Shown here in pieces: positions 1,927 through 26,160 of a stretch of DNA of 26,160 bases (the first letter of the stretch is position 1; every line of letters begins with the position of its first letter). Location: positions 1-26,160 of IMG/VR virus record IMGVR_UViG_2657245132_000008; one strand, written 5' to 3'. A model generated the notes under the pieces. The model had not been told where the DNA came from. It ran no database searches and worked only from the letters and a program-made list of their open reading frames with translations. Origin of the DNA: a virus. Lineage: Duplodnaviria > Heunggongvirae > Uroviricota > Caudoviricetes. The position numbers and the translations under genes were made by a program.

Positions 1927-2423
1927 CAGTGATGACGCTCAATCTCGTTGAAAAACAGCCAGCAGCTATGCGCCGGATAATTGGCAAGCATCTTGCCGTC
2001 CCTCGCTGGCAGGATACATGTGATTATTATAATCAGATGATGGAGCGCGAACGGCTAACGGTTTGCTTTCATGCACAGTTAAAACAGCGTCACGCAACGA
2101 TGCGTTTTGAAGAAATGAACGACGTCGAACGTGAACGACTGGTTTGTGCAATTGATGAATTGCGTGGCGCATTCTCAAAACGCCGTCAGGTCGGCGCAAG
2201 TGAGTATGCATATATTAGTTTTTTAACAGTCAGTCAGCGTCGTACTTTATTTATGCATGCGGGATTGACAGAAAAAGAATTCAATCAGCCGTACTGGCGA
2301 ATTAATGAAGAATCATGTTACTGGCGTGATGCTTTATTCCGTGCATTACGTGAATTATTCAGTCTGTTTGAGTATGCACCGACAATTCTGACGTCGGTAA
2401 AACCAGAGCAATATCTGCATTAA
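1923..2423 (+). CDS. B: Replication protein B (166 aa; helicase-loader-like in P2)
   Basis: Internal ATG at 1923 with GGAGGG about 8 nt upstream gives exactly 166 aa, the size of P2 B (from memory). Position between cox and A. Confidence 0.7.
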   Translation: MTVMTLNLVEKQPAAMRRIIGKHLAVPRWQDTCDYYNQMMERERLTVCFHAQLKQRHATMRFEEMNDVERERLVCAIDELRGAFSKRRQVGASEYAYISFLTVSQRRTLFMHAGLTEKEFNQPYWRINEESCYWRDALFRALRELFSLFEYAPTILTSVKPEQYLH

Positions 2424-2445
2424 ATAATTAACCAGAGTTTTTAAC

Positions 2446-2475
2446 GCACTTAATCGTGCGGGGCTTCTTTTTGCC
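2446..2475 (+). terminator. Weak hairpin plus T-run between B and the next ORF (possible attenuator)
   Basis: CGCAC-TTAAT-CGTGCG followed by GGGCTTCTTTTT; short stem, so low confidence. Confidence 0.25.
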
Positions 2476-2486
2476 TGGAGAAAGTC

Positions 2487-2711
2487 ATGCATACAGTTTC
2501 TGAAAATCAGTGCGGTAAATACGCATTACTGCTGCAACAGGCCAGAACCGAAGCACAGGCCGACGCTGCGACGCGCTTTTCTTCTCATCTTGACGCCATG
2601 ATTCGCCACATCACAAAGGCGGAGTTATCCCGCGTGGAGATAGTTGAGCTGCTCAGTCAGGAGTCGGAAAAATTTCACAATATCGGATTGTCTCGCGGGG
2701 AGGTGCTTTGA
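2487..2711 (+). CDS. Early-operon small protein, P2 orf80-like (74 aa)
   Basis: ATG at 2487 with GGAG upstream; stop overlaps the next start (TGATG). Confidence 0.55.
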
Positions 2712-3013
2712 TGTCCTGTTCTCGTTCGGTTGTATTACTGAATAACGCCTTAAAAATCGCCGTTATGAAAAATGGTGATTTGTCTCTTATTCAACTTGGT
2801 ATTGATAAAGAGAAGCGCGAAATAACTGAATCTGTTATCGCGATTTATCAGAGTGAATTAAACCTCCTGTCTGATGTGGTCAATTTACTTGTTAAACGCG
2901 CTGTATTCCACAAGCAAATTTCCTCCGTGGATGAACTGACAAAATTAACGACAGAACTCGCCAGTTATTGCGCTGATGAATTTAAGAAGCTGAACGACAA
3001 AAGGAGCTGGTAA
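2711..3013 (+). CDS. Early-operon small protein, P2 orf81-like (100 aa)
   Basis: ATG at 2711 (track start 2708 is TTG); translationally coupled to its neighbours. Confidence 0.55.
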   Translation: MSCSRSVVLLNNALKIAVMKNGDLSLIQLGIDKEKREITESVIAIYQSELNLLSDVVNLLVKRAVFHKQISSVDELTKLTTELASYCADEFKKLNDKRSW

Positions 3014-3237
3014 TGCCGGACAACGTGGATTTTATTCAGGAACAACAGGCTGAATTACTGGAGCGCCAGATTAACGCGGCAAGGGTAAAACATTGCGGTG
3101 TTTCTGCGCTGGTTTGCGAAGAGTGTGACGCGCCAATACCTGCTGCCCGTCGTGCGGCTTATCCGTCAGCCACGCGTTGTGTTTCCTGTCAGTCAGTCTT
3201 TGAAGCAAAAAACAAACATTACCGGAGAACGGCATGA
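3013..3237 (+). CDS. TraR/DksA-family C4 zinc-finger protein, P2 orf82-like (74 aa)
   Basis: AAGGAG RBS at 3001-3006, ATG at 3013. Contains CxxC...CxxC (CEECDAPIP...CVSCQ), the C4 zinc finger typical of phage TraR/DksA-like proteins. Confidence 0.65.
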   Translation: MPDNVDFIQEQQAELLERQINAARVKHCGVSALVCEECDAPIPAARRAAYPSATRCVSCQSVFEAKNKHYRRTA

Positions 3238-3509
3238 GTATTCGTATTGAAATTGGCGAACGTTATGTCGTTACCAGTGACAGCTTTCAGTTTATTCTCC
3301 ACGAGAAAAAGAGAGCGGAAAGCGGTAAAAACGCCGGTCAGGAATGGCTGGCGGTGGTTGGTTATTACCCGAAATTAGGCCAGCTCGTTTCCGGCCTGAT
3401 GCATCACGATATTCTGACCGGAAGCGCAAAATCTTTTGCTGATTTAAACGCGCAGGTTGAGCAACTCAGCAAGCGTTGTTCAGAGGCTTTTGGCTCATAT
3501 GGCCGTTAA
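3234..3509 (+). CDS. Early-operon small protein, P2 orf83-like (91 aa)
   Basis: ATG at 3234; overlaps the start of A. Confidence 0.5.
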   Translation: MSIRIEIGERYVVTSDSFQFILHEKKRAESGKNAGQEWLAVVGYYPKLGQLVSGLMHHDILTGSAKSFADLNAQVEQLSKRCSEAFGSYGR

Positions 3510-5775
3510 AGCCTCCGGGCGTTTTGTCCCTCCGTCAGCATTTACCGCAGGCACCGGTAAGGCGTTTACCGGTGCTTATGCATGGAACGCGCCACGCGAG
3601 GCTGTCGGGCGCGAAAGACCTCTTACACGTGACGAGATGCGTCAGGTGCAAGGTGTTTTATCCACGATTAACCGCCTGCCTTACTTTTTGCGCTCGCTGT
3701 TTACTTCACGCTATGACTACATCCGGCGCAATAAAAGCCCGGTGCACGGGTTTTATTTCCTCACATCTACTTTTCAGCGTCGTTTATGGCCGCGCATTGA
3801 GCGTGTGAATCAGCGCCATGAAATGAACACCGACGCGTCGTTGCTGTTTCTGGCAGAGCGTGACCACTATGCGCGCCTGCCGGGAATGAATGACAAGGAG
3901 CTGAAAAAGTTTGCCGCCCGTATCTCATCGCAGCTTTTCATGATGTATGAGGAACTCTGCGATGCATGGGTTGATGCGCATGGTGAAAAAGAATCGCTGT
4001 TTACGGATGAGGCGCAGGCTCACCTGTATGGTCATGTTGCTGGCGCTGCACGTGCTTTCAATATTTCCCCGCTCTACTGGAAAAAATACCGTAAAGGACA
4101 GATGACCACGAGGCAGGCATATTCTGCCATTGCCCGCCTGTTTAACGATGAGTGGTGGACTCATCAGCTTAAAGGCCAGCGTATGCGCTGGCATGAGGCG
4201 TTACTGATAGCTGTCGGGGAGGTCAATAAAGACCGTTCTCCTTATGCCAGTAAACACGCCATTCGTGATGTGCGTGCGCGCCGCCAGGCAAATCTGGAAT
4301 TTCTTAAATCGTGTGACCTTGAAAACAGGGAAACCGGCGAGCGCATCGACCTTATCAGTAAGGTGATGGGCAGTATTTCTAATCCTGAAATTCGCCGGAT
4401 GGAGCTGATGAACACCATTGCCGGTATTGAGCGTTACGCCGCCGCAGAGGGTGATGTGGGGATGTTTATCACGCTGACCGCGCCGTCAAAGTATCACCCG
4501 ACACGTCAGGTCGGAAAAGGCGAAAGTAAAACCGTTCAGCTTAATCACGGCTGGAACGATGAGGCATTTAATCCAAAGGATGCGCAGCGTTATCTCTGCC
4601 GTATCTGGAGCCTGATGCGCACGGCATTCAAGGATAATGATTTACAGGTCTACGGTTTGCGAGTCGTCGAGCCACACCACGACGGAACGCCGCACTGGCA
4701 TATGATGCTTTTTTGTCATCCACGCCAGCGTAACCAGATTATCGAAATCATGCGTCGCTATGCGCTCAAAGAGGATGGCGACGAAAGAGGAGCCGCGCGA
4801 AACCGTTTTCAGGCAAAACACCTTAACCGGGGCGGTGCTGCGGGATATATCGCGAAATACATTTCAAAAAACATCGACGGCTATGCACTGGATGGTCAGC
4901 TCGATAACGACACCGGCAGGCCGCTGAAAGACACTGCAGCGGCTGTTACCGCATGGGCGTCAACGTGGCGCATTCCGCAATTTAAAACGGTTGGCCTGCC
5001 GACAATGGGGGCTTACCGTGAACTACGCAAATTGCCTCGCGGCGTCAGCATTGCTGATGAGTTTGACGAGCGCGTCGAGGCTGCACGCGCCGCCGCAGAC
5101 AGTGGTGATTTTGCGCTGTATATCAGCGCGCAGGGCGGGGCAAATGTCCCGCGCGATTGTCAGACTGTCAGGGTCGCCCGTAGTCTGTCGGATGACGTTA
5201 ACGAGTACGAGGAAGAAGTCGAGAGAGTGGTCGGCATTTACGCGCCGCATCTCGGCGCGCGTCATATTCATATCACCAGAACGACGGACTGGCGCATTGT
5301 GCCGAAAGTTCCGGTCGTTGAGCCTTTGACTTTAAAAAGCGGCATCGCCGCGCCTCGGAGTCCTGTCAATAACTGTGGAAAGCTCACCGGTGGTGATACT
5401 TCGTTACCAGCTCCCACACCTTCTGAGCACGCCGCAGCAGTGCTTAATCTGGTTGATGACGGTGTCATCGAATGGAATGACCCGGAGGTCGTGAGGGCGC
5501 TCAGAGGTGCATTAAAACATGGCCTGAGAACACCAAATCGCCAGCAAAGAAACGGAAGCCCGTTAAAACCGCATGAAATGGCACCATCGGCCAGACTGAC
5601 CCGGTCGGAACGAATGCAAATTACCCGTATCCGCGTTGACCTTGCTCAGAACGGTATCAGGCCGCAGCGATGGGAGCTTGAGGCGCTGGCGCGTGGGGCA
5701 ACCGTAAATTATGACGGGAAAAAATTCACGTATCCGGTCGCTAATGAGTGGTCGGTTTTTTCAATTAAACAATAA
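3499..5775 (+). CDS. A: Replication initiation endonuclease gpA (rolling-circle HUH/Rep-type; 758 aa from ATG 3499; track start 3457 is TTG)
   Basis: HUH-type motif PHWHMMLF (~4690-4710) and the paired-tyrosine motif GYIAKYISKN (Tyr codons ~4846 and ~4858), as in the phiX174 A / P2 A rolling-circle initiators. Size matches P2 A (761 aa, from memory). Confidence 0.9.
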   Translation: MAVKASGRFVPPSAFTAGTGKAFTGAYAWNAPREAVGRERPLTRDEMRQVQGVLSTINRLPYFLRSLFTSRYDYIRRNKSPVHGFYFLTSTFQRRLWPRIERVNQRHEMNTDASLLFLAERDHYARLPGMNDKELKKFAARISSQLFMMYEELCDAWVDAHGEKESLFTDEAQAHLYGHVAGAARAFNISPLYWKKYRKGQMTTRQAYSAIARLFNDEWWTHQLKGQRMRWHEALLIAVGEVNKDRSPYASKHAIRDVRARRQANLEFLKSCDLENRETGERIDLISKVMGSISNPEIRRMELMNTIAGIERYAAAEGDVGMFITLTAPSKYHPTRQVGKGESKTVQLNHGWNDEAFNPKDAQRYLCRIWSLMRTAFKDNDLQVYGLRVVEPHHDGTPHWHMMLFCHPRQRNQIIEIMRRYALKEDGDERGAARNRFQAKHLNRGGAAGYIAKYISKNIDGYALDGQLDNDTGRPLKDTAAAVTAWASTWRIPQFKTVGLPTMGAYRELRKLPRGVSIADEFDERVEAARAAADSGDFALYISAQGGANVPRDCQTVRVARSLSDDVNEYEEEVERVVGIYAPHLGARHIHITRTTDWRIVPKVPVVEPLTLKSGIAAPRSPVNNCGKLTGGDTSLPAPTPSEHAAAVLNLVDDGVIEWNDPEVVRALRGALKHGLRTPNRQQRNGSPLKPHEMAPSARLTRSERMQITRIRVDLAQNGIRPQRWELEALARGATVNYDGKKFTYPVANEWSVFSIKQ

Positions 5776-5976: not shown

Positions 5977-6921
5977 ATGCCAACAGTAGTTTCACTTTTT
6001 TCTGGATGCGGTGGTTCCGATGCGGGGGTTTTGAGAGCCGGCTTTGATGTGCTTATGGCCAACGATATCTTGCCGTATGCGCGCGATGTTTATATTGCCA
6101 ATCATCCAGAAACTGATTACATATTAGGCAATATTGCTGATGTAACTACTTTTCCTAAATCTGATTTGCTGGTAGGTTGTTATCCATGTCAGGGATTCAG
6201 CCAGGGTGGTGCGCGTAAAGCCGATCGAAAAATTAATACTCTTTATTTAGAGTTTGCTAGAGCTTTAAACAATATAAAGCCTAAAGCTTTTATAGTAGAA
6301 AACGTGTCTGGTATGGTTAGAAAAAATTTTGAGCATTTGTTATCTGACCAGATCAGGGTTTTTACTGAAGCAGGTTATACTGTTTCCGCAAAAGTTTTAA
6401 ATGCGGCTGAATATGGAGTAGCGCAGGAAAGAAAAAGAATATTTATCGTAGGAATCCGTAATGATTTCAAAGTTAAGTACGAGTTCCCTCAGCCAACTCA
6501 TGGGCCAGCAACTGGCGTCAACTATGTTACTATTAAAGATGCTATAGGGCATTTACCTGAATGGCCAGAAGGTGAATTTTATGATATGGGATTCCATTGG
6601 TATTATATGTCTCGCAATCGTCGCCAGGATTGGGATCAAATTTCAAAGACAATAGTTGCTAATGCAAGGCATATGCCGTTGCATCCTGTCAGTCCTCCGA
6701 TGGAGAAAGTAAGAACTGATGAATGGAGATTTGTTGAGGATCGGAGAGCTCGCAGATTCAGTTTTCGAGAGGCAGCACTATTACAAGGGTTTGAGGATCT
6801 AGTGTTTCCAGAAACAAATGCTGCAAGTCTTGGCATGAAATACACGGTGGTTGGTAATGCAGTGCCTCCGCCGCTTTTTGAAGCTGTAACGAAGGCATTG
6901 CCAATAGAATTATGGGATTGA
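5977..6921 (+). CDS. C5-cytosine DNA methyltransferase (Dcm-like, 314 aa)
   Basis: Conserved C5-MTase motifs in canonical order: I FSGCGG (aa 8-13), IV PCQGFS (catalytic Cys71, codon ~6187-6189), VI ENVSGM, VIII QERKRIFIVG, IX RRFSFREAALLQGFED, X VVGNAV. A variable region between VIII and IX would be the target-recognition domain. Located in an AT-rich cargo island. Confidence 0.9.
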   Translation: MPTVVSLFSGCGGSDAGVLRAGFDVLMANDILPYARDVYIANHPETDYILGNIADVTTFPKSDLLVGCYPCQGFSQGGARKADRKINTLYLEFARALNNIKPKAFIVENVSGMVRKNFEHLLSDQIRVFTEAGYTVSAKVLNAAEYGVAQERKRIFIVGIRNDFKVKYEFPQPTHGPATGVNYVTIKDAIGHLPEWPEGEFYDMGFHWYYMSRNRRQDWDQISKTIVANARHMPLHPVSPPMEKVRTDEWRFVEDRRARRFSFREAALLQGFEDLVFPETNAASLGMKYTVVGNAVPPPLFEAVTKALPIELWD

Positions 6922-6928
6922 TAAGCTA

Positions 6929-7921
6929 TTAAGGCTCTGGATTTAATGTATAAAGCTCTTCCTCAAATTCGCGAAACCAATCAGAGGTAGTTATCGCTTC
7001 CCATTGGTTTGCCTTATCAAGTAGATATATGATTCTCAACCTATCTAATAATAATACTCCAGCGGTTGCGTGTGTGCTTACCCATTCGCCATTTGCTTCC
7101 CGATAGAAAACAGGCGTGAACATTGTTGATGGATGCTGGAACGCAATTTGGAAATAGGTGGTCAGTTTTAACACGTTAGCCTCTAATGTTTTGCTTGGCC
7201 ACCCTGTTTCTTGTGCACCACATTGACCAAGAATTCCATAGTTGCTAGTTTGACCATCAGGAAATTCCACTGTAGCAATTAGGTCAAACCCGGCATCACC
7301 AGATGTGGGAGCTCTATTTATTTCCCTTGTGTTTAAACTACAAACTCCAAGATCTTTTCCTAAAGTTTGTAGAGCTGTCCGAAGATTTGTTCCATAATAA
7401 TTTTGCCTATCATCGGAGTTAGCATCAAAAATTCTTACGGTGCCATGTGCAGGTAAGAGAGAAATCATTGCTACTTTACATACTCTGGCAAAGCTCTTTG
7501 CCCAACGTTGTGCTGCTCCTTTAATCGACTTAAAGGATCTAAGTCTAGAGCAGCAAAGAAGAAAAACATATATTCGTTGTTGTTGGTTTAGATTTTCTTT
7601 AATAATTATCTCATCACCTGAAATTATAAATGGATATATTTTGCCAAGAGCACTTTCTCTATATTCGAGTTGTGTCCAAACATCTTCGAGTTGCTCTTCA
7701 AAACGATCATTTCTCTCAGCGTCTCCATTAATTTCTTCTTCAGAATTACATTCTTCATCAATTTCTTCAACGCTTGTTATGCCGAATTTTCTTACTGAAT
7801 CTAAATCATTTTTATGTAGTGAGTTACGTCCGGTATAATTAATTACCGTGAGTAACTCGGCTAAATCTGCAAACAAATGAGGAGAGTTGGGATGCATAAC
7901 TCCTACTTCAAAAGTCATCAT
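6929..7921 (-). CDS. Cargo protein of unknown function (~330 aa), second gene of a two-gene operon; strongly acidic N-proximal tract
   Basis: Long ORF in AT-rich DNA, start ATG at 7921 or 7918 (track start 7924 is GTG) overlapping the stop of the upstream gene by ~14 nt, which implies translational coupling. AGAGG/GAGGTG RBS just upstream. No catalytic motif recognisable by eye. Confidence 0.75.
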   Translation of the reverse strand: MMTFEVGVMHPNSPHLFADLAELLTVINYTGRNSLHKNDLDSVRKFGITSVEEIDEECNSEEEINGDAERNDRFEEQLEDVWTQLEYRESALGKIYPFIISGDEIIIKENLNQQQRIYVFLLCCSRLRSFKSIKGAAQRWAKSFARVCKVAMISLLPAHGTVRIFDANSDDRQNYYGTNLRTALQTLGKDLGVCSLNTREINRAPTSGDAGFDLIATVEFPDGQTSNYGILGQCGAQETGWPSKTLEANVLKLTTYFQIAFQHPSTMFTPVFYREANGEWVSTHATAGVLLLDRLRIIYLLDKANQWEAITTSDWFREFEEELYTLNPEP

Positions 7922-9029
7922 CACCTCTGCTATTTTTCTCTGCTATTTCAGAACCTATAAGCTTAATATGTTTATTGATTCTTCGTGCTACTTCATGGGC
8001 CTGTCTATCATACTCTACCGTGGCAACCATGCCTGCTGCATCTATCAAAGCTGCTTCAACTTGATAAAGTAACTGGAGAAAGTCCTTAGTAATATCAGAT
8101 GTCAATTGATAGGCAACTGCGAGTGGAGCCCCCATTCGGAATTGCTCCAATGCCTTAGGGCTACTTACAACAGCAGCTAATTCTCTTAAATTACGTGATT
8201 CTCCTACACGAGTTTTTTTATCCTCGCCTTTTTTATATAACCATTCAGTTAGTTCTTTTATTTCTTTGTTCTTTAAACTCTTAGAATTGATGATAGGATG
8301 ACTTGGTATTGTGTCTCCATCGTCTTCGATTGAAACTCCGACAAACTGGCCTAACCGCTCATCAGCAAGTGCTGTTGATAATACTGAAAATTTAATCGTT
8401 TCTTCATCTAGCTTTTCAATACCATAAAAATCATTTTTTTTAATGATTTCATACACCGCTAAAGCGTCTAGGTTACGCTTGATATGATCCCTACGACTGC
8501 CAATAGCTCTGGCAACCTCATAGTAGCGTAGCATTGGATCCAGATTTGCATTGGTATAATCAAAAAGCTGTTTAATATATCGAGCTTTTGATAAGGGTTC
8601 CCATTGTTTGACACCAGTAATATGTCTGAAACCAAGGTACGGAAGAATCTCTTCTCTTGTTTGGCGCTCAATGACAGGAACACGATCGACCGTATGTTTT
8701 GCATTTGATGCAATTTCTCGTAGTCGAGCACTTGGATTTTCACATAGTGTCGGATCGCGTAATAATTTGACCGCGGATAGGCGACGGTTTCCTTCAACTA
8801 CAATGTACTTCCCCGGCGCTCCACTATCAGGAATGACAATCAATGGTTCTCCAGGGAAAAAACCATTTTCCGCAATAGCACTCATTAGGTCTTCGATAGA
8901 TGTTGAGGTTGCTATGTAGTTAATCATTCCCAATTGGTCACGAGACACGCCTTCAGGAAGTCTTGGGTTTTCTGTGTCAAGTTCCAAATCATCTAGCGGA
9001 ACATAAAGTATTTCTGAATCAGCAATCAT
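7908..9029 (-). CDS. ParB/Srx-fold (DUF262/DndB/GmrS-like) domain protein (373 aa from ATG 9029), first gene of the cargo operon
   Basis: ATG at 9029 preceded by GGAGA with 5-nt spacer (track start 9068 is TTG). N-terminal segment PLIVIPDSGAPGKYIVVEGNRRLSAVKLL has the [ED]G-x-[RQ]-R-L arginine motif of the ParB N-terminal domain superfamily (codons ~8781-8796). The remainder is predicted helical and of unknown function. Confidence 0.75.
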   Translation of the reverse strand: MIADSEILYVPLDDLELDTENPRLPEGVSRDQLGMINYIATSTSIEDLMSAIAENGFFPGEPLIVIPDSGAPGKYIVVEGNRRLSAVKLLRDPTLCENPSARLREIASNAKHTVDRVPVIERQTREEILPYLGFRHITGVKQWEPLSKARYIKQLFDYTNANLDPMLRYYEVARAIGSRRDHIKRNLDALAVYEIIKKNDFYGIEKLDEETIKFSVLSTALADERLGQFVGVSIEDDGDTIPSHPIINSKSLKNKEIKELTEWLYKKGEDKKTRVGESRNLRELAAVVSSPKALEQFRMGAPLAVAYQLTSDITKDFLQLLYQVEAALIDAAGMVATVEYDRQAHEVARRINKHIKLIGSEIAEKNSRGDDDF

Positions 9030-9234
9030 CTGGATCTCCGTTGAACATGTCCACGAGAAGGAGCACAAAGTTATTTCATAACATGCAATATACTCATTCT
9101 GTAGCCATAAATGAATTATTCATGATGTAAGATTCGCGTTGATGTGCGTGAATTCGCAAGTAATTATACAGCAAGGTTTGATTGGGTATCGTCAGCACCA
9201 GTGCGGTTCCAACGTACTCATGCAACTGCATTAA

Positions 9235-21122: not shown

Positions 21123-23741
21123 ATGAGCACGAAATTTAAAACCGTTATCACTACTGCCGGAGCCGCGAAGCTGGCAGCCGCCACTGTCCCCGGCGGGAAA
21201 AAAGTAAACCTGTCTGCAATGGCCGTGGGTGACGGTAATGGCAAATTACCGGTGCCGGATGCCGGTCAGACGAAACTGGTGCATGAGGTCTGGCGTCACG
21301 CTCTGAATAAAGTCAGCGTGGATAACAAGAATAAAAACTATATCGTGGCTGAACTGGTTGTACCGCCCGAAGTGGGCGGCTTCTGGATGCGTGAGCTTGG
21401 TCTGTATGACGATGCCGGAACACTGATTGCGGTATCCAACATGGCAGAAAGCTATAAGCCAGAACTGGCTGAAGGCTCCGGACGTGCGCAGACCTGCCGC
21501 ATGGTTATTATTCTCAGCAACGTGGCGTCCGTTGAGCTGAGTATTGATGCCAGCACAGTGATGGCGACGCAGGATTACGTCGATGACAAAATCGCAGAGC
21601 ATGAGCAGTCCCGCCGCCATCCTGACGCCACGCTGACAGAAAAAGGTTTTACTCAGTTAAGCAGTGCAACAAACAGCACCAGTGAGTCATTGGCGGCAAC
21701 GCCAAAAGCGGTCAAGGCAGCAAATGACAACGCAAATTCACGTCTGGCGAAAAATCAGAATGGTGCAGATATCCAGGATAAATCAGCTTTTCTGGACAAT
21801 GTTGGCGTTACCAGCCTGACGTTTATGAAAAACAACGGCGAAATGCCGGTTGATGCTGATCTGAATACATTTGGTCCCGTTAAGGCTTATCTGGGGATCT
21901 GGTCTAAAGCTACCTCAACTAACGCAACACTGGAGAAAAATTTCCCGGAAGATAATGCTGTCGGTGTGCTTGAGGTTTTTGCTGCCGGCAATTTTGCAGG
22001 CACGCAACGCTTTATCACGAGAGACGGCAATGTATACATGCGTAAACTCGCCAATAAGTGGAATGGTACTGATGGTCCATGGGGCGTATGGCGTCACACT
22101 CAATCAGCGACCCGCCCTTTGAGTACGACTATAGACCTGAATACGCTTGGAGCCGCCGAGCATCTTGGTTTATGGCATAACAGTAGCTCGGCTATAGCTT
22201 CATATGAACGTAATTATCCAGAGGAAGGCGGCTTTGCTCAGGGGACGCTTGAGATCCTCGAAGGCGGGAATTATGGAAGAACGCAACGTTATACCACTCG
22301 CCGTGGAAATATGTATGTCCGCTGCCTTGCGGCAAGCTGGGATGCATCAAATCCGCAGTGGGAACCGTGGTTAAGAGTCGGTCATCAGTCAGAGAGTCGT
22401 TATTACGACGGGGATTTGAATGATGTGACTTCACCAGGTATTTACAGCGTTACAGGTAAAGCGACCAATGGTCCAATACTGGACGGAAACGGCGTGACAG
22501 TCCTCGGTATTCTGGAAGTGTTGAGGCGCTTTGATGGTGTTAACGTATGGCAGCGTTATACAACTGCCGGAACAGGTGCAACCCTTAAAGGTCGCACGTT
22601 TGAGCGCGTTTTTACCGGCAGCTCATGGAGCGAATGGCGGGAAGTTTACACATCGTATTCACTTCCCCTGAATCTGGGTATCGGCGGTGCTGTGGCAAAG
22701 CTCACCAGTCTGGACTGGCAGACCTACGACTTTGTGCCGGGCAGTCTGATAACCGTTCGGCTTGATAACATGACCAACATTCCCGACGGTATGGACTGGG
22801 GCGTCATTGATGGCAACCTGATAAACATCGCAGTTGGTCCGAGTGATGATTCCGGTACGGGGCGCTCAATGCATGTATGGCGCAGCACTGTAAGTAAAGC
22901 GAACTACCGCTTTTTTATGGTGCGTATTTCAGGAAATCCGGGAAGTCGCACGATCACAACAAGACGAGTACCAATCATTGACGAAGCCCAGACATGGGCG
23001 GCGAAACAAACCTTCAGCGCCGGTCTTTCAGGCGAACTGTCCGGCAATGCTGCTACAGCAACAAAGCTGAAAACGGCAAGGACAATTAACGGCGTAACCT
23101 TTGACGGGACGAAAGATATTGAAGCGTTTCCGCCTGGTGTTCCGCTGCCGTGGCCATCAGATACACCACCTGCAGGCTATGCAATTATGCAGGGGCAGAC
23201 GTTTGATAAGGCTGCATATCCGAAACTGGCTATTGCCTATCCTTCTGGTGTTATTCCAGATATGCGCGGCTGGACAATCAAGGGCAAACCCGCCAGTGGG
23301 CGTGCCGTATTGTCACAGGAACAGGACGGGATTAAATCGCATACTCACAGCGCCAGTGCGTCAAATACGGATTTAGGGACGAAAACGACCAGTTCATTTG
23401 ATTACGGCACGAAGACAGTCAGTACGTTTAACTACGGAACAAAAACCACTAATACCACAGGTAACCATACACATACCATTTACAGAGGGAATGCCAATAC
23501 TAATGGTGAAACCGGTAAAACAGGCTTTGACAACCCATCGTTTAATGGCACATCAGGAGCTGCCGGGAATCATGCCCACACGGTAGATATTGGCGCACAT
23601 AATCATACGGTTGGTATTGGTGCACATTCACACACGGTTGCTATTGGCTCACACGGGCACTCTATTACCGTTAATGCTACAGGTAATACAGAAAACACCG
23701 TCAAAAACATCGCATTTAACTATATTGTGAGGCTTGCATAA
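21123..23741 (+). CDS. H: Tail fibre protein gpH (872 aa) with a mosaic, repeat-containing distal part
   Basis: Position after I. Conserved N-terminal attachment region, then three tandem ~75-aa modules and a His-rich C-terminal tip (GNHxHT / GAHxHTV repeats). Longer than P2 H (669 aa, from memory), consistent with host-range module exchange. Confidence 0.85.
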
Positions 23742-24319
23742 TGGCTTTCAGAATGAGTGCAGAAGCACAAACTATCCGCGTATTTAATTTACTTGATGGA
23801 ACCAATGAATTTATTGGGGAAAGTGACGCGTATATTCCGCCGCATACAGGTCTGCCTGCAAACAGTACAGATATTGCACCGCCTGATATTCCGGCGGGTT
23901 ATGCAGCCGTTTTCAATGCAGATGAAATGAAATGGGAACTGATGGAAGACCATCGCGGAAAGACCGTCTACGAAACGAAAACGGGAGCAGCCATTTATAT
24001 TTCTGAACTTGGCGTATTACCTCCAGACGTGACAGCTATTTCCCCGGAGGGGGATTATCAGAAATGGAACGGAAATGCGTGGGTGAATGATGAGAATGCA
24101 GAGCGTGATGCACTTGTCAGAGCGGCGGAGTCTCAGAAGAAAGAGCAGATTGCATATGCCGGTGAAATTATTGCCACGCTGCAGGATGCTGTCGATTTTG
24201 ATATGGCTACCGAGGAAGAAAAGTTAAGTCTGACACACTGGAAAAAATACCGTGTGCTACTGAATCGCGTTCAGCCGGAAGATGCTCCGGATATAGAATG
24301 GCCAGAAATGCCGCAATAA
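23741..24319 (+). CDS. G: Tail fibre assembly chaperone gpG (192 aa, Tfa-like)
   Basis: ATG overlaps the H stop (TAATG); position and size typical of P2 G / lambda Tfa-type chaperones. Confidence 0.8.
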
Positions 24320-24371
24320 ATCGTATTAGCTCTGGTGTGAGTTTATACATCTATGGCACAGGGTAAAAACT

Positions 24372-24406
24372 AATCTGACAGTCCGCTCTGTGCCAAAAGC
24401 GGACAT
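24372..24406. repeat. Left copy of a 35-bp inverted repeat bracketing the Z/fun-position cargo gene; itself an internal hairpin
   Basis: AATCTGACAGTCCGCTCTGTGCCAAAAGCGGACAT; about 31/35 identical to the reverse complement of ~25565-25599. Internal 7-bp stem GTCCGCT / AGCGGAC. Confidence 0.6.
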
Positions 24407-24523
24407 GTCAAAGCGCAGAGTGAATGGCTAAGTCTAGCTCATTAGAAATGTTCGCTTCATGAAAATGGCTGCAGCAAGGATCTATCTCACTGCGGCCTCT
24501 TTACAATAACGAAATTTTGCGAG

Positions 24524-25279
24524 CTATTCCTTGGCCTCTTTATTTTTCTCGCCATCGCCAATGTAAAGAAGATAATCGTTTAAGGATATCCTTCCGGAGG
24601 GGCCGGTCCATGTTATCAATCCGTTCTCACGAAGATTAAATAATGCTTCCATGAACTCATTATCGTTAAAAGAATGATCCTCCGAGAACAGAATGTTCAT
24701 TTTTCTCAATAGTTCTTCCACTTTAATCTTTTCATATCGCCTTATCAGACTTAGTGCTTTACGACGCATTAAGATTGTAGGTACTGCTTGTGAACGAATG
24801 GTTTGTTGTATTCCACTATCAAGAACTTTCTTGATTTTACTCTCTAACTCTTTGATTTTAGTTTCATTATCTCCATTGGACTTAAGCTTTTCATCAACGA
24901 TGCAAATAATTTCCTGACTAATGCTGTTCTTGAGTTCGTTTATTTTTTCTTCATTGTTGAGAATCTCATCAGAGCTTCCTGCATGGGGTTTTTTCCATAT
25001 GTGCTGACGCATATCCGTTACCGTATCTCTCATCATAGAGAATGTATCTGAATATAACTTGTCAAATATTTTTTCCAGTCGTTCGACACTTGCCTGAATG
25101 TCTTTTGCTGCTTTAGTTGTCTCTTTAGAAGCCTCATTCGACATTTTATAAAAAACAAAAGAAAGCCAAATAGCCCCAATGGCGAGTACTAATGAGGCTA
25201 TTGTGGCAATAAAACCTATTATTGTTATTGCTGTATCTAATGTACCTGCTGCATCTGTGACTACTGTTTCTGCTGCCAT
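24524..25279 (-). CDS. Membrane-anchored coiled-coil protein of unknown function (251 aa)
   Basis: ATG at 25279 with GAGGA upstream. Hydrophobic N-terminal helix (TAITIIGFIATIASLVLAIGAIWLSFVFY), then a Lys/Glu-rich region with heptad-like periodicity (...INELKNSISQEI...KIKELESKIKKVL...). Single gene in AT-rich DNA on the strand opposite the tail genes. Confidence 0.75.
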   Translation of the reverse strand: MAAETVVTDAAGTLDTAITIIGFIATIASLVLAIGAIWLSFVFYKMSNEASKETTKAAKDIQASVERLEKIFDKLYSDTFSMMRDTVTDMRQHIWKKPHAGSSDEILNNEEKINELKNSISQEIICIVDEKLKSNGDNETKIKELESKIKKVLDSGIQQTIRSQAVPTILMRRKALSLIRRYEKIKVEELLRKMNILFSEDHSFNDNEFMEALFNLRENGLITWTGPSGRISLNDYLLYIGDGEKNKEAKE

Positions 25280-25564
25280 ATATCCTCAATATTTAACCAT
25301 ACAGGGTAGCGTGTTTTAACCGCGGGGAAGTCGGGGTGGTGACACCCTAGCCTTACCCCGATTCCAGAGTATTTATTTATCATACCATTGAAACTATTTA
25401 ATTTTATCGAAAATTTTGTCAGGGCGTGACTGAAAAGTCTTCAGCACGTCAAGCATATCGTCGCCGTTCAATTAACACTGAGCCTTTTCTTAGTGGGGTG
25501 GGCTGCGCAGTTGCGAGGTTATGCCCCAGTTCCTCACTACATTCTAATTAAGCCGGCCAACTAA

Positions 25565-25599
25565 ATGTCCGCTTTTCGCTCAAAGCAGACTGTCAGATT
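25565..25599. repeat. Right copy of the 35-bp inverted repeat bracketing the Z/fun-position cargo gene
   Basis: Reverse complement reads AATCTGACAGTCTGCTTTGAGCGAAAAGCGGACAT, about 31/35 identical to 24372-24406. Confidence 0.6.
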
Positions 25600-25653
25600 T
25601 AATAGCGTTTTGATTATGTAACTTGTCAGTTGGAAGCTGAGTGAGAACAAATC

Positions 25654-25690
25654 AAGGCAGGCGGGCTGATTGCCTGCCTTTTCTTTATCT
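25654..25690 (+). terminator. Strong rho-independent terminator (+ strand) upstream of FI
   Basis: Perfect 9-bp stem AAGGCAGGC / GCCTGCCTT with a 9-nt loop, followed by TTCTTTATCT. Confidence 0.6.
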
Positions 25691-25782: not shown

Positions 25783-26160
25783 ATGAGTGACTATCATCAC
25801 GGCGTGCAGGTGCTGGAGATTAACGACGGCACCCGCGTCATTTCCACCGTATCCACTGCCATTGTCGGCATGGTCTGCACGGCCAGCGATGCGGATGCGG
25901 AAACCTTCCCCCTCAATAAACCGGTGCTGATTACCAATGTGCAGAGCGCAATTGCAAAGGCCGGTAAAAAAGGCACGCTGGCGGCATCGTTGCAGGCCAT
26001 CGCCGACCAGTCAAAACCGGTCACCGTTGTCGTGCGTGTGGAAGATGGCACCGGTGACGACGAGGAAACGAAACTCGCGCAGACCGTTTCCAATATCATC
26101 GGCACCACCGACGAAAACGGTCAGTACACCGGACTAAAAGCCCTGCTGGCGGCGGAGTCG
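25783..26160 (+). CDS. FI: Tail sheath protein gpFI, 5' part only (first 126 codons; continues beyond the window)
   Basis: GGAG RBS then ATG at ~25783; open frame to the window end ([21 protein letters not shown]...). Position after G and the Z/fun cargo as in P2. Absent from the ORF track because no stop occurs inside the window. Confidence 0.8.

What the first reader, a model, noticed from the sequence alone, without database searches (positions are those of the whole stretch)
24372..25599. Z/fun-position cargo gene is bracketed by 35-bp inverted repeats
Seen in sequence: about 24372-24406 and the reverse complement of about 25565-25599 are roughly 31/35 identical, and each contains its own 7-bp-stem hairpin. 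Together they flank a ~1.2-kb segment holding the cargo gene and its upstream region. Inference: these could be conserved backbone hairpins that act as recombination or exchange points for hotspot cassettes, remnants of a MITE-like element, or the ends of an invertible segment. No recombinase or transposase is encoded inside.
Basis: seen in the sequence. Interest (0 to 1): 0.5.

Follow-up and report, generated by a model that had tools for sequence, protein, structure and literature searches.

The report
Relic cargo transposon frames P2 hotspot
The two 35-bp inverted repeats are the inner parts of the ends of a transposase-less, cargo-carrying transposon lodged in the P2 phage Z/fun hotspot, and they mark the borders of gene cassettes that are swapped between unrelated phages.

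Summary
In detail: arms 24372-24406 and 25565-25599 are 31/35 complementary, with about 1e-8 such pairs expected by chance.

They are not isolated hairpins. They are the inner third of imperfect terminal inverted repeats about 85-90 nt long, starting 5'-TGTATTAGCTC, with distinct L-type and R-type ends. These belong to a transposon-like element family found in prophages, plasmids, islands and chromosomes of many Gammaproteobacteria.

Complete copies carry perfect 7-bp target duplications. One 6.7-kb copy carrying a type II CBASS system sits at two unrelated sites with different duplications. No copy examined encodes a transposase.

In the window the element spans 24322-25649, from the stop codon of G to the late-operon terminator. 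P2-like phages with an empty site lack it entirely.

All E. coli P2-like phages share the same lineage-specific decayed outer ends, yet hold at least 38 unrelated cargos. The arms travel with the cargo. The window's cassette recurs at 98% identity in a lambdoid prophage, with homology running exactly from hairpin to hairpin.

Inversion is not supported. The cognate transposase, and whether exchange is homologous or site-specific, remain unknown. I found no description of this in the P2 hotspot literature available here.

The parts
23741..24319 (+). Gene G (tail fibre assembly protein). The element begins 2 nt after its stop codon.
   Evidence: ORF list; Pfam Caudo_TAP PF02413, 135 bits; annotated as tail fibre assembly protein in matching records.
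24315..24321 (.). Left flanking 7-mer AATAAAT. Probably a decayed copy of the 7-bp target duplication; it overlaps the G stop codon.
   Evidence: 5 of 7 identical to the right flanking 7-mer AATCAAG (sequence). Empty-site phages read CAATAAAC-ACAGGCGGG. Inference.
24322..24406 (+). Left terminal inverted repeat (L-type end), 85 nt. The terminus is CGTATTAGCTC here and TGTATKAGCTC in most relatives.
   Evidence: nhmmer hit 24323-24406, profile positions 2-85, E 6.6e-16; profile comparison with family consensus.
24372..24406 (+). Left 35-bp arm of the finding, the inner third of the left end. It starts with the second copy of the ATCTGACAG motif and contains hairpin 24381-24404.
   Evidence: conserved in 58 P2-like loci.
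24407..25564 (.). Cargo segment, 1158 bp, GC 0.39.
   Evidence: One of at least 38 unrelated cargo clusters found between the same arms.
24524..25279 (-). Cargo gene, 251 aa. The translation shows a long hydrophobic N-terminal stretch followed by a charged region; function unknown.
   Evidence: phrog_36054 E 1.9e-173. No Pfam, PADLOC or NCBIfam family. 351 homologues, mostly unnamed.
25565..25599 (-). Right 35-bp arm of the finding, the inner third of the right end. Hairpin 25567-25590 is better formed on the minus strand.
   Evidence: In most E. coli and phage relatives, homology to the window on the right starts at 25563-25576.
25565..25649 (-). Right terminal inverted repeat (R-type end), 85 nt. 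The terminus ...GAGTGAGAACA ends at 25649.
   Evidence: nhmmer hit 25643-25564, profile positions 7-86, E 3.3e-13.
25650..25656 (.). Right flanking 7-mer AATCAAG, probably a decayed target-duplication copy.
   Evidence: inference.
25654..25680 (+). Terminator-like hairpin plus T tract. In empty-site phages it directly follows the G stop codon.
   Evidence: Terminator scan; STYP1 and L022/L061/L067/L075 sequences.
25783..26160 (+). 5' part of gene FI (tail sheath), the right-hand backbone gene.

Best explanation
The two 35-bp repeats are the inner, best-kept third of the ~85-90-bp imperfect terminal inverted repeats of a non-autonomous, cargo-carrying DNA transposon.

Features of the family:
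- Termini read 5'-TGTATTAGCTC...GAGCTAATACA-3'.
- It has one L-type and one R-type end.
- Each end carries two copies of an ATCTGACAG motif about 34 nt apart, followed by a GTCYGCT-N10-AGCGGAC palindrome.
- It makes a 7-bp target-site duplication.
- No copy examined holds a transposase gene, so it must be moved in trans by an enzyme not identified here.

One copy (window 24322-25649) inserted once, in an ancestor of the E. coli P2-like phages, between the stop codon of G and the late-operon terminator. Its outer 50 nt have since decayed. I infer that this copy is probably no longer mobile as a whole.

This resident shell is what constitutes the Z/fun hotspot. Cassettes consisting of arm, cargo and arm are replaced by recombination with other members of the family that sit in lambdoid and other prophages, plasmids and islands. 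The crossover lies in or at the conserved outer half of each arm.

Shown: the repeat family, the target duplications, transposition of one whole element to two sites, the single origin of the P2 shell, co-transfer of arms with cargo, and sharing of cassettes between phage families with hairpin-to-hairpin boundaries.

Inferred: that the arms are transposase-binding sites, and that exchange is short-homology recombination (RecA or phage Red/RecET type, or hairpin-promoted template switching) rather than a dedicated site-specific reaction.
For: (a) Outside P2 the arm is always preceded by a conserved ~50-nt outer part starting TGTATTAGCTC. This was seen in 23 species, 76 plasmids, 1741 of 5426 E. 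coli genomes, and at least 120 viral and at least 120 metagenome contigs.

(b) Perfect 7-bp direct repeats of varied sequence flank complete copies. In the genome and viral set, 15 of 28 unique elements are 7/7 and 2 are 6/7. In metagenomes, 9 of 14 are 7/7. Chance per element is about 8e-5.

(c) The same 6.7-kb element (98.7% identical over 6711 bp) lies at two unrelated sites with different duplications, CATCACC and CTTTATC. It carries a complete type II CBASS system and no transposase.

(d) P2-like phages with an empty site go from the G stop codon straight to the terminator and have neither arm. The window's insert relative to them is exactly the element.

(e) All P2-context copies share lineage-specific outer sequences, whatever their cargo. 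Identity to the family consensus in the outer 50 nt is 0.60/0.68 on the left and 0.29/0.63 on the right, against 0.84-0.96 in the arms.

(f) At least 38 unrelated cargos, 0.84-4.1 kb, lie between the same arms.

(g) Arm identity follows cargo, not shell. With different cargo and outer ends at least 96% identical, the arms are only 83% identical (n=170 and n=79). With the same cargo they are 97-99.7% identical. For the window versus L015: outer left 85%, left arm 97%, cargo 98.5%, right arm 100%, outer right 81%.

(h) The window's cassette is 98% identical in a lambdoid prophage of E. coli 1506D011. Homology covers window 24381-25591, from hairpin stem to hairpin stem. A second P2 cassette (L058) matches the same lambdoid shell (L182) at 99.2%, with the same boundaries.

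(i) Other fixed shells also hold several cargos: the CTATATC site and the GATAAAG site.

(j) Sequence-specific insertion sequences (IS30 family, and IS110-family ISEsa2) are inserted in the arm loop in many genera. This is what is seen at conserved transposon ends elsewhere (own knowledge).
Against: - No transposase was found inside any of about 200 elements or next to solo ends. The transposase class and the claim that the arms are its binding sites are therefore inference.
- I do not know of an insertion-sequence family for which a 7-bp duplication is diagnostic (own knowledge), so the family cannot be named.
- The duplication flanking the window's copy is degenerate (5/7). The single-insertion scenario rests on shared outer-end variants, not on an intact duplication.
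- Only two high-identity cross-family cassette pairs were found.
- Among same-cargo P2 pairs, some breakpoints lie further out, in G, rather than at the arms. Exchange through ordinary flanking homology therefore also occurs.
- The homology available between the P2 and lambdoid shells is only about 25 nt per side, which is short for RecA-type recombination (own knowledge).
Confidence: 0.75

Rival explanations
1. The arms are dedicated site-specific recombination sites. A trans-acting recombinase that recognises the hairpins (integron-, Xer- or HUH-like) excises and inserts arm-bounded cassettes, and the outer transposon ends are only a vehicle.
For: In two independent cross-family cases, homology ends exactly at the outer base of the hairpin stems on both sides. 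The shared sequence there is only about 25 nt. The outer ~21 nt of the arms are nearly invariant among P2 shells, while the adjacent outer repeat has drifted. Target-specific insertion sequences hit the loop, as the IS1111-attC group does in integron attC sites (own knowledge).
Against: The lambdoid shell simply has no similarity outside the hairpin, so homology must end there under ordinary recombination too. The hairpin stem shows almost no compensatory change: 83% of cells pair, and one subfamily (GGCAGCT) breaks the stem. No recombinase gene is linked to the elements. Some same-cargo exchanges have breakpoints outside the arms.
Confidence: 0.15
2. The arms are kept by the phage for its own use, as hairpin terminators or insulators that shield the cargo from late-operon read-through and the reverse. 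Their inverted arrangement reflects that symmetry.
For: The consensus scan flags the right arm, read on the minus strand, as terminator-like. The arms sit between convergent or divergent transcription units. P2 has an annotated putative V-operon terminator inside this region.
Against: The same sequences occur as transposon ends in plasmids and chromosomes far from any phage operon. The left arm has no T tract and is not flagged. There is no Rfam match and the stem covariation is weak. The real terminator lies outside the element and is present in empty-site phages.
Confidence: 0.07
3. Each P2 cargo arrived by an independent transposition of a whole element into the same preferred target site, not by cassette exchange within one resident shell.
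For: The family does transpose as a unit, and its targets are AT-rich 7-mers next to stop codons.
Against: All 35 unique left and 34 unique right P2-context ends share the same lineage-specific outer sequence and the same degenerate flanking 7-mers, regardless of cargo. Fresh insertions would bring consensus outer ends and a perfect duplication.
Confidence: 0.04
4. The repeats are the crossover sites of an invertible DNA segment, that is, a switch.
For: Inverted orientation of the repeats. About 18 of 80 related phages carry a DNA invertase gene at the same map position.
Against: There is no invertase in this phage's G-FI region. Four fixed differences distinguish the left and right arms in every phage, and no chimeras were seen. 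No cargo occurs in both orientations among 58 loci. Ten E. coli genomes hold this element at 91-100% coverage as one co-linear place. The invertase-bearing phages lack the arms.
Confidence: 0.02

Closest known systems
Mobile insertion cassettes (MICs, e.g. MIC231 of Bacillus cereus) and other non-autonomous passenger-carrying transposons such as Tn3-derived TIMEs (own knowledge; TIMEs in PMC4133298)
   Same: Terminal inverted repeats, a target-site duplication, passenger genes, no transposase of their own, and mobilisation in trans.
   Different: No parent insertion sequence with matching ends is known here. The ends are long (~85-90 nt), asymmetric (L-type and R-type) and internally repetitive. 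The duplication is 7 bp. Copies are few per genome and sit mainly in prophages, plasmids and islands. Old copies persist as sockets whose cargo is replaced.
MITEs (e.g. ERIC, Correia elements; survey in PMC11602168)
   Same: Transposase-less elements bounded by inverted repeats and present in both hosts and their viruses.
   Different: MITEs are short, non-coding and usually numerous. These elements are 0.5-6.7 kb, carry one to six genes, and occur 1-4 times per genome.
P2 Z/fun and tin-old hotspots of anti-phage systems (Rousset et al. 2022, PMC9122126; NAR 2026, PMC13586616)
   Same: This is the Z/fun hotspot: variable cargo between G and FI of P2-like prophages.
   Different: Those papers define the hotspot by its flanking genes and leave the exchange mechanism open. 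The 2026 paper states that transposable elements are almost absent from these hotspots. Neither mentions inverted repeats, hairpins or target duplications.
Transposons with arrayed transposase-binding sites at their ends (Mu, Tn7, Tn402/Tn5053, Tn552, IS21) (own knowledge)
   Same: TG...CA termini, long ends with repeated subterminal motifs, and distinct left and right ends.
   Different: Those make 4-8-bp duplications (5 bp for Mu, Tn7 and Tn402) and encode their transposase. No sequence relationship was tested here, so this is a resemblance only.
Integron cassettes (attC) and pdif modules of Acinetobacter plasmids (own knowledge)
   Same: Promoter-less or self-contained gene cassettes, bounded by imperfect palindromic sites, that move between platforms without carrying a recombinase.
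   Different: The arms are conserved in sequence rather than only in structure. They occur as an inverted pair per cassette. They show no similarity to attC core sites or to XerC/D sites as I recall them. No integron integrase is nearby, and the platform itself has transposon hallmarks.
The sopE cassette shared by P2-like SopEPhi and lambdoid prophages of Salmonella (Mirold et al. 2001, as cited in PMC4042001)
   Same: A ~1.2-kb cassette at the G-FI position of a P2-like phage that also occurs in lambdoid prophages.
   Different: SopEPhi has no match to the element ends, so it is a different cassette system.

Membership tests
DNA transposon (cut- or copy-and-paste, TIR type) | Terminal inverted repeats at both ends | tested here: met
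   ~85-90-nt imperfect inverted ends, profile hits at both ends of about 200 elements including the window.
DNA transposon (cut- or copy-and-paste, TIR type) | Target-site duplication of fixed length and variable sequence | tested here: met
   7 bp. 15 of 28 plus 9 of 14 unique elements are perfect, with many different 7-mers. The window's own copy is degenerate, 5/7.
DNA transposon (cut- or copy-and-paste, TIR type) | Same element at different genomic sites | tested here: met
   L313 and L290: 98.7% identical over 6.7 kb, with unrelated flanks and different duplications.
DNA transposon (cut- or copy-and-paste, TIR type) | Cognate transposase identified | tested here: not met
   None inside any element or next to solo ends. 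Neighbouring IS30 and IS110 transposases belong to separate insertion sequences inserted into the arm.
Mobile insertion cassette (non-autonomous, passenger-carrying) | Transposon ends plus passenger genes, no transposase gene | tested here: met
   window ORF 24524-25279.
Mobile insertion cassette (non-autonomous, passenger-carrying) | Ends match those of a known autonomous insertion sequence | not testable with these tools
   No ISfinder-type library is available. Literature string searches for the termini found nothing relevant.
MITE | Short, non-coding, usually high copy number | tested here: not met
   0.5-6.7 kb, gene-carrying, median 1 and at most 4 places per E. coli genome.
Invertible segment (Gin/Cin/Hin type) | Adjacent invertase gene and both orientations in the population | tested here: not met
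   No invertase in this G-FI region. Arms never chimeric and cargo never inverted.
Integron gene cassette | One attC per cassette, IntI integrase and attI platform nearby | tested here: not met
   Paired inverted arms of conserved sequence. The only integrase in the window is the phage integrase at 1-1011. No array structure.
Intrinsic terminator | G+C-rich hairpin followed directly by a T/U tract | tested here: inconclusive
   The right arm on the minus strand is flagged by the consensus scan and the left arm is not. No transcript data.
Structured RNA family (Rfam) | Match to a curated covariance model; covariation in stems | tested here: not met
   No Rfam match at the arms even at E up to 1. 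Stem pairs vary mostly by breaking, not compensating.
P2 Z/fun hotspot | Variable genes between tail fibre assembly gene G and tail sheath gene FI of a P2-like phage | tested here: met

The most novel reading that the evidence does not exclude
The element is a two-tier mobile system. The first tier is a trans-mobilised transposon shell that seeds sockets in unrelated phages, plasmids and islands. The second is a dedicated, hairpin-directed cassette-exchange reaction at the 35-bp arms, performed by an unlinked and as yet unknown enzyme. This would be an integron-like gene-shuffling system without a resident integrase, underlying the turnover of defence hotspots.
Probability: 0.15. Interest if true: 0.9.

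Novelty: new variant of a known kind. Interest (0 to 1): 0.72.

Why it matters
P2-like prophages occur in about a third of E. coli genomes, and their hotspots are a main hunting ground for new anti-phage systems. How those hotspots turn over has been left open. The 2022 paper calls for experiments on recombination pathways, and the 2026 paper discounts transposons because it found almost none.

This analysis suggests that the Z/fun hotspot is itself an old cargo transposon. Its conserved inner repeats delimit cassettes that are shared, nearly identical, with lambdoid prophages. The same element family moves complete defence systems such as CBASS around Gammaproteobacteria without carrying a transposase.

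That has three practical consequences:
- It gives a sequence signature (the ~90-nt ends) for finding cargo loci that have no mobility genes.
- It gives a concrete, testable model for cassette exchange.
- It gives a clear target for the missing transposase.

Tried and rejected
- **Similarity of the window's outer spacers.** Testing 24320-24371 against 25600-25657, inverted or direct, by local alignment with shuffles gave nothing. That result was misleading: the two ends are of different types and are decayed in P2. The relationship only appeared through copies from other genomes.
- **Rfam.** No family matches at the arms. A weak IS009 hit at 24200-24282 (24.8 bits against a gathering score of 117) lies inside G and is taken as chance.
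- **Hairpin covariation** across 144 unique arms: mostly pair-breaking changes, so a structural role is not supported.
- **Inversion.** No opposite-strand matches among 58 cargos.
- **sopE cassette of SopEPhi as a member of the family.** No profile hit.
- **Transposase search.** ORFs of the longest elements, ORFs next to solo ends and one metagenome scan yielded only cargo, plus unrelated IS30 and IS110 insertions.
- **Inner motif as a gene start.** The conserved inner motif GGGAG..GGTCA(TG) was considered as the start of a lost transposase gene. Only a 16-codon ORF is present in L094 and there is no consistent reading frame elsewhere.
- **Homologues of the cargo protein.** Two of ten loci keep a partial end and the rest have none, so this gene also travels by other routes.
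- **Literature.** Four papers on P2 hotspots or P2 diversity and one MITE survey contain no mention of these repeats. Nilsson et al. 2004 could not be retrieved.
- **Resemblance of the terminus** to Mu attL and to the Tn402 inverted repeat is from memory only and was not tested.
Full report
**Observation.** The inverted repeat exists as described. Arms 24372-24406 and 25565-25599 are 35 nt long and 31/35 complementary, with 1158 nt between them. About 1e-8 such pairs are expected by chance in this region. The left arm folds into a perfect 7-bp stem with a 10-nt loop. The right arm's stem has a C.A mismatch on the + strand and a G.T wobble on the - strand. The only convincing ORF between the arms is 24524-25279 on the minus strand. 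It encodes 251 aa with a hydrophobic N-terminus, matches phrog_36054 of unknown function, and has no Pfam, PADLOC or NCBIfam family.

**Setting.** The window is a P2-like prophage, 100% identical to E. coli R8, NZ_CP107172.1. Gene G (tail fibre assembly) ends at 24319 and FI (tail sheath) starts at 25783, so this is the Z/fun position of P2. A terminator-like hairpin lies at 25654-25680. Phage STYP1 and five IMG/VR relatives have an empty site: the G stop codon is followed directly by that terminator, and neither arm is present. About 18 of 80 relatives carry a DNA invertase gene in front of FI instead, and they also lack arms.

**Within P2-like phages.** Of 83 loci examined, 58 have the left arm and about 52 have both, always at fixed distances from G and FI. 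Between the arms lie at least 38 unrelated cargo clusters. These range from 0.84 to 4.1 kb, have GC 0.31-0.45, and have genes on either strand. P2 itself has degenerate copies of both arms around fun(Z). Four positions distinguish left from right arms in every phage, and no chimeric arm or inverted cargo was seen. This argues against an inversion switch.

**Beyond P2.** An exact-pattern scan of one genome per species found the arm in 23 species, including Klebsiella, Pantoea, Erwinia, Morganella, Yersinia, Xenorhabdus, Kosakonia, Enterobacter, Acinetobacter and Neptunicella. None of these loci is a G-FI context.

- In these loci the arm is always preceded by about 50 further conserved nucleotides beginning TGTATTAGCTC. 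The true repeat unit is therefore about 85-90 nt, and in some copies it extends another ~45 nt inward.
- Each element has one L-type and one R-type end.
- Complete copies are flanked by perfect 7-bp direct repeats of many different sequences. Examples are GCTAACT, AATAATT, CTTAATA, CACTATT, GCTAATA, TATTAGC, GCTTAGT, AATGATA, CTATATC, CATAAAT, TTTCATG, GATTAAG, CATCACC, CTTTATC, GATAAAG, GCTGAAT and GTTAACC.
- The ends also occur on 76 plasmids, in 1741 of 5426 E. coli genomes, and in at least 120 viral and at least 120 metagenome contigs. The E. coli sites include other prophages and tRNA-linked islands.
- One 6.7-kb element is 98.7% identical at two unrelated sites with different duplications. 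It carries a complete type II CBASS system.
- No element examined encodes a transposase.

**Mapping onto the window.** A profile of the ends hits 24323-24406 and 25643-25564, and nowhere else in the window. The element is therefore 24322-25649, which is exactly what empty-site phages lack. Its flanking 7-mers, AATAAAT and AATCAAG, match at 5 of 7 positions. The empty site reads AATAAAC-ACAGGCGGG. This fits an old 7-bp duplication but does not prove one.

In P2-context copies the outer 50 nt have drifted from the family consensus: identity is 0.60/0.68 on the left and 0.29/0.63 on the right. The arms stay at the family level, 0.84-0.96. The drifted outer sequence is the same whatever the cargo. 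This points to one ancestral insertion followed by cargo replacement inside it.

**Cassette exchange.** Arm sequence follows the cargo, not the shell.

- Phages with nearly identical outer ends but different cargo have arms only 83% identical. Phages with the same cargo have arms 97-99.7% identical.
- The differences are concentrated in the inner half of the arm, and the outer ~21 nt are almost invariant.
- The window and L015 share the cassette (left arm 97%, cargo 98.5%, right arm 100%) but differ outside it (outer left 85%, outer right 81%, unrelated G).
- The same cassette occurs at 98% identity in a lambdoid prophage of E. coli 1506D011, between a replication gene and hokD. It sits inside a very degenerate shell of the same family. 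Homology covers window 24381-25591, from the outer base of one hairpin to that of the other.
- A second P2 cassette (L058) matches that lambdoid shell (L182) at 99.2%, with the same boundaries.
- Other fixed shells also hold several different cargos.
- Not every exchange ends at the arms. In some same-cargo P2 pairs the breakpoint lies in G.

**What the arms probably are.** Each end contains two copies of ATCTGACAG about 34 nt apart, and the arm begins with the second copy. That layout resembles the arrayed transposase-binding sites of Mu, Tn7, Tn402 and IS21-type ends (own knowledge, not tested).

- The hairpin is not supported as a selected structure. Across 144 unique arms, 83% of stem cells pair, changes mostly break pairs, and one subfamily loses the stem.
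- There is no Rfam match.
- A terminator role is weakly suggested for the right arm only. It cannot explain the same sequence occurring in plasmids and chromosomes.
- Two target-specific insertion sequences, of the IS30 family and the IS110 family (ISEsa2), sit in the arm loop in many genera. A remnant of the IS30-type element explains the missing right arm of phage P24A7b.

**Mechanism, with confidence.**

- I am confident (about 0.9) that the arms are part of the ends of a transposon family with a 7-bp duplication.
- I am fairly confident (about 0.8) that the Z/fun hotspot is one old copy whose arm-bounded cassettes are replaced from other family members.
- How the replacement happens is inferred. 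Short-homology recombination within the conserved part of the arm is the simplest reading, about 0.5-0.6. This could be RecA or prophage Red/RecET mediated, or hairpin-promoted template switching.
- A dedicated site-specific reaction at the hairpins is not excluded, about 0.15.
- The cognate transposase is unknown.

**Comparison and novelty.** The closest known kind is the mobile insertion cassette, or other non-autonomous passenger transposon. The element is not a MITE in the strict sense, not an integron cassette, not an invertible segment, and not related to the sopE cassette.

The papers on P2 hotspots that I could read define Z/fun by its flanking genes, leave the exchange mechanism open, and do not mention these repeats. 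One states that transposable elements are nearly absent from such hotspots. String searches for the termini in the literature found nothing relevant. ISfinder and the older P2 comparative papers could not be consulted, so prior description cannot be ruled out.

**Verdict.** This is a real feature. The finding leads to a widespread family that, as far as I could check, has not been named: transposase-less cargo transposons that act as cassette sockets in phages.

Noticed in passing
L313 6598-13308 and L290 4447-11154 (metagenome contigs): The same 6.7-kb element (98.7% identical) lies at two unrelated sites with different perfect 7-bp duplications. It carries a complete type II CBASS system (cyclase, E1-E2, JAB, HNH-SAVED effector, exonuclease) and no transposase.
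   Followed up: yes
L090 ~2420-3636, L091 ~323-1540; remnant in L002 (phage P24A7b) ~2045-2235: An IS30-family insertion sequence (386-aa transposase, NCBIfam NF033563) is inserted in the loop of the R-type arm. The position is the same in Pectobacterium and Raoultella, in opposite orientations. A remnant of it replaces the right arm in P24A7b.
   Followed up: partly
L367 4069-5726 (K. quasipneumoniae plasmid NZ_CP034130.1) and at least 17 other plasmid hits: The IS110-family element ISEsa2 is inserted in the arm loop at about the same position. The end profile stops at position ~73 and the arm resumes after the insertion sequence. This resembles IS4321/IS5075 in Tn21 ends (own knowledge).
   Followed up: partly
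window 5977-9068: The other P2 hotspot (tin/old position, between A and Q) holds three genes: a C5 cytosine methyltransferase (5977-6921), an unknown 331-aa protein (6929-7924, minus strand), and a protein matching PD-Lambda-5_A models (7908-9068, minus strand). No element ends are present there.
   Followed up: partly
L005, L007, L009, L010, L020, L027 and about 12 more IMG/VR loci, directly upstream of FI: About 18 of 80 close P2-like relatives have a DNA invertase gene where this phage has the element. RefSeq annotates it as recombinase/DNA-invertase next to the tail sheath gene.
   Followed up: no
L115 4349-4959 and 67 other viral loci; about 18 metagenome loci (e.g. L247 5551-6166): A 611-616-bp member of the family with one 124-aa ORF sits at a single fixed site (duplication GTTTATT) in a common prophage group. 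Some of the same contigs also carry a P2-type or lambdoid-type shell.
   Followed up: partly
L321 2726-2772: A 47-bp perfect palindrome consisting only of the two 23-nt element termini joined at CTG-T-CAG. It looks like a collapsed element with no flanking duplication.
   Followed up: no
L125, L141, L198 (site CTATATC); L284, L293 (site GATAAAG): Other phage or genome sites where one shell, with the same flanks and the same duplication, holds different cargos. The socket behaviour is therefore not peculiar to P2.
   Followed up: partly
L240-L242 4001-4741; L243 4001-4729: Homologues of the window's cargo protein lie between the terminase subunit genes of another prophage type, and next to Zot and secretin genes of a filamentous-phage-like region. 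Neither location has element ends.
   Followed up: no
L101 2935-3000: Two degenerate arms, one R-like and one L-like, abut outer end to outer end with no outer repeat between them. The origin is unclear.
   Followed up: no
window 24353-24361 with 24386-24394: GGCACAGGG in the left outer repeat can pair with CTCTGTGCC in the left arm (GGCACAGAG in most relatives). This alternative 9-bp stem overlaps the arm hairpin and is conserved in L-type ends.
   Followed up: no
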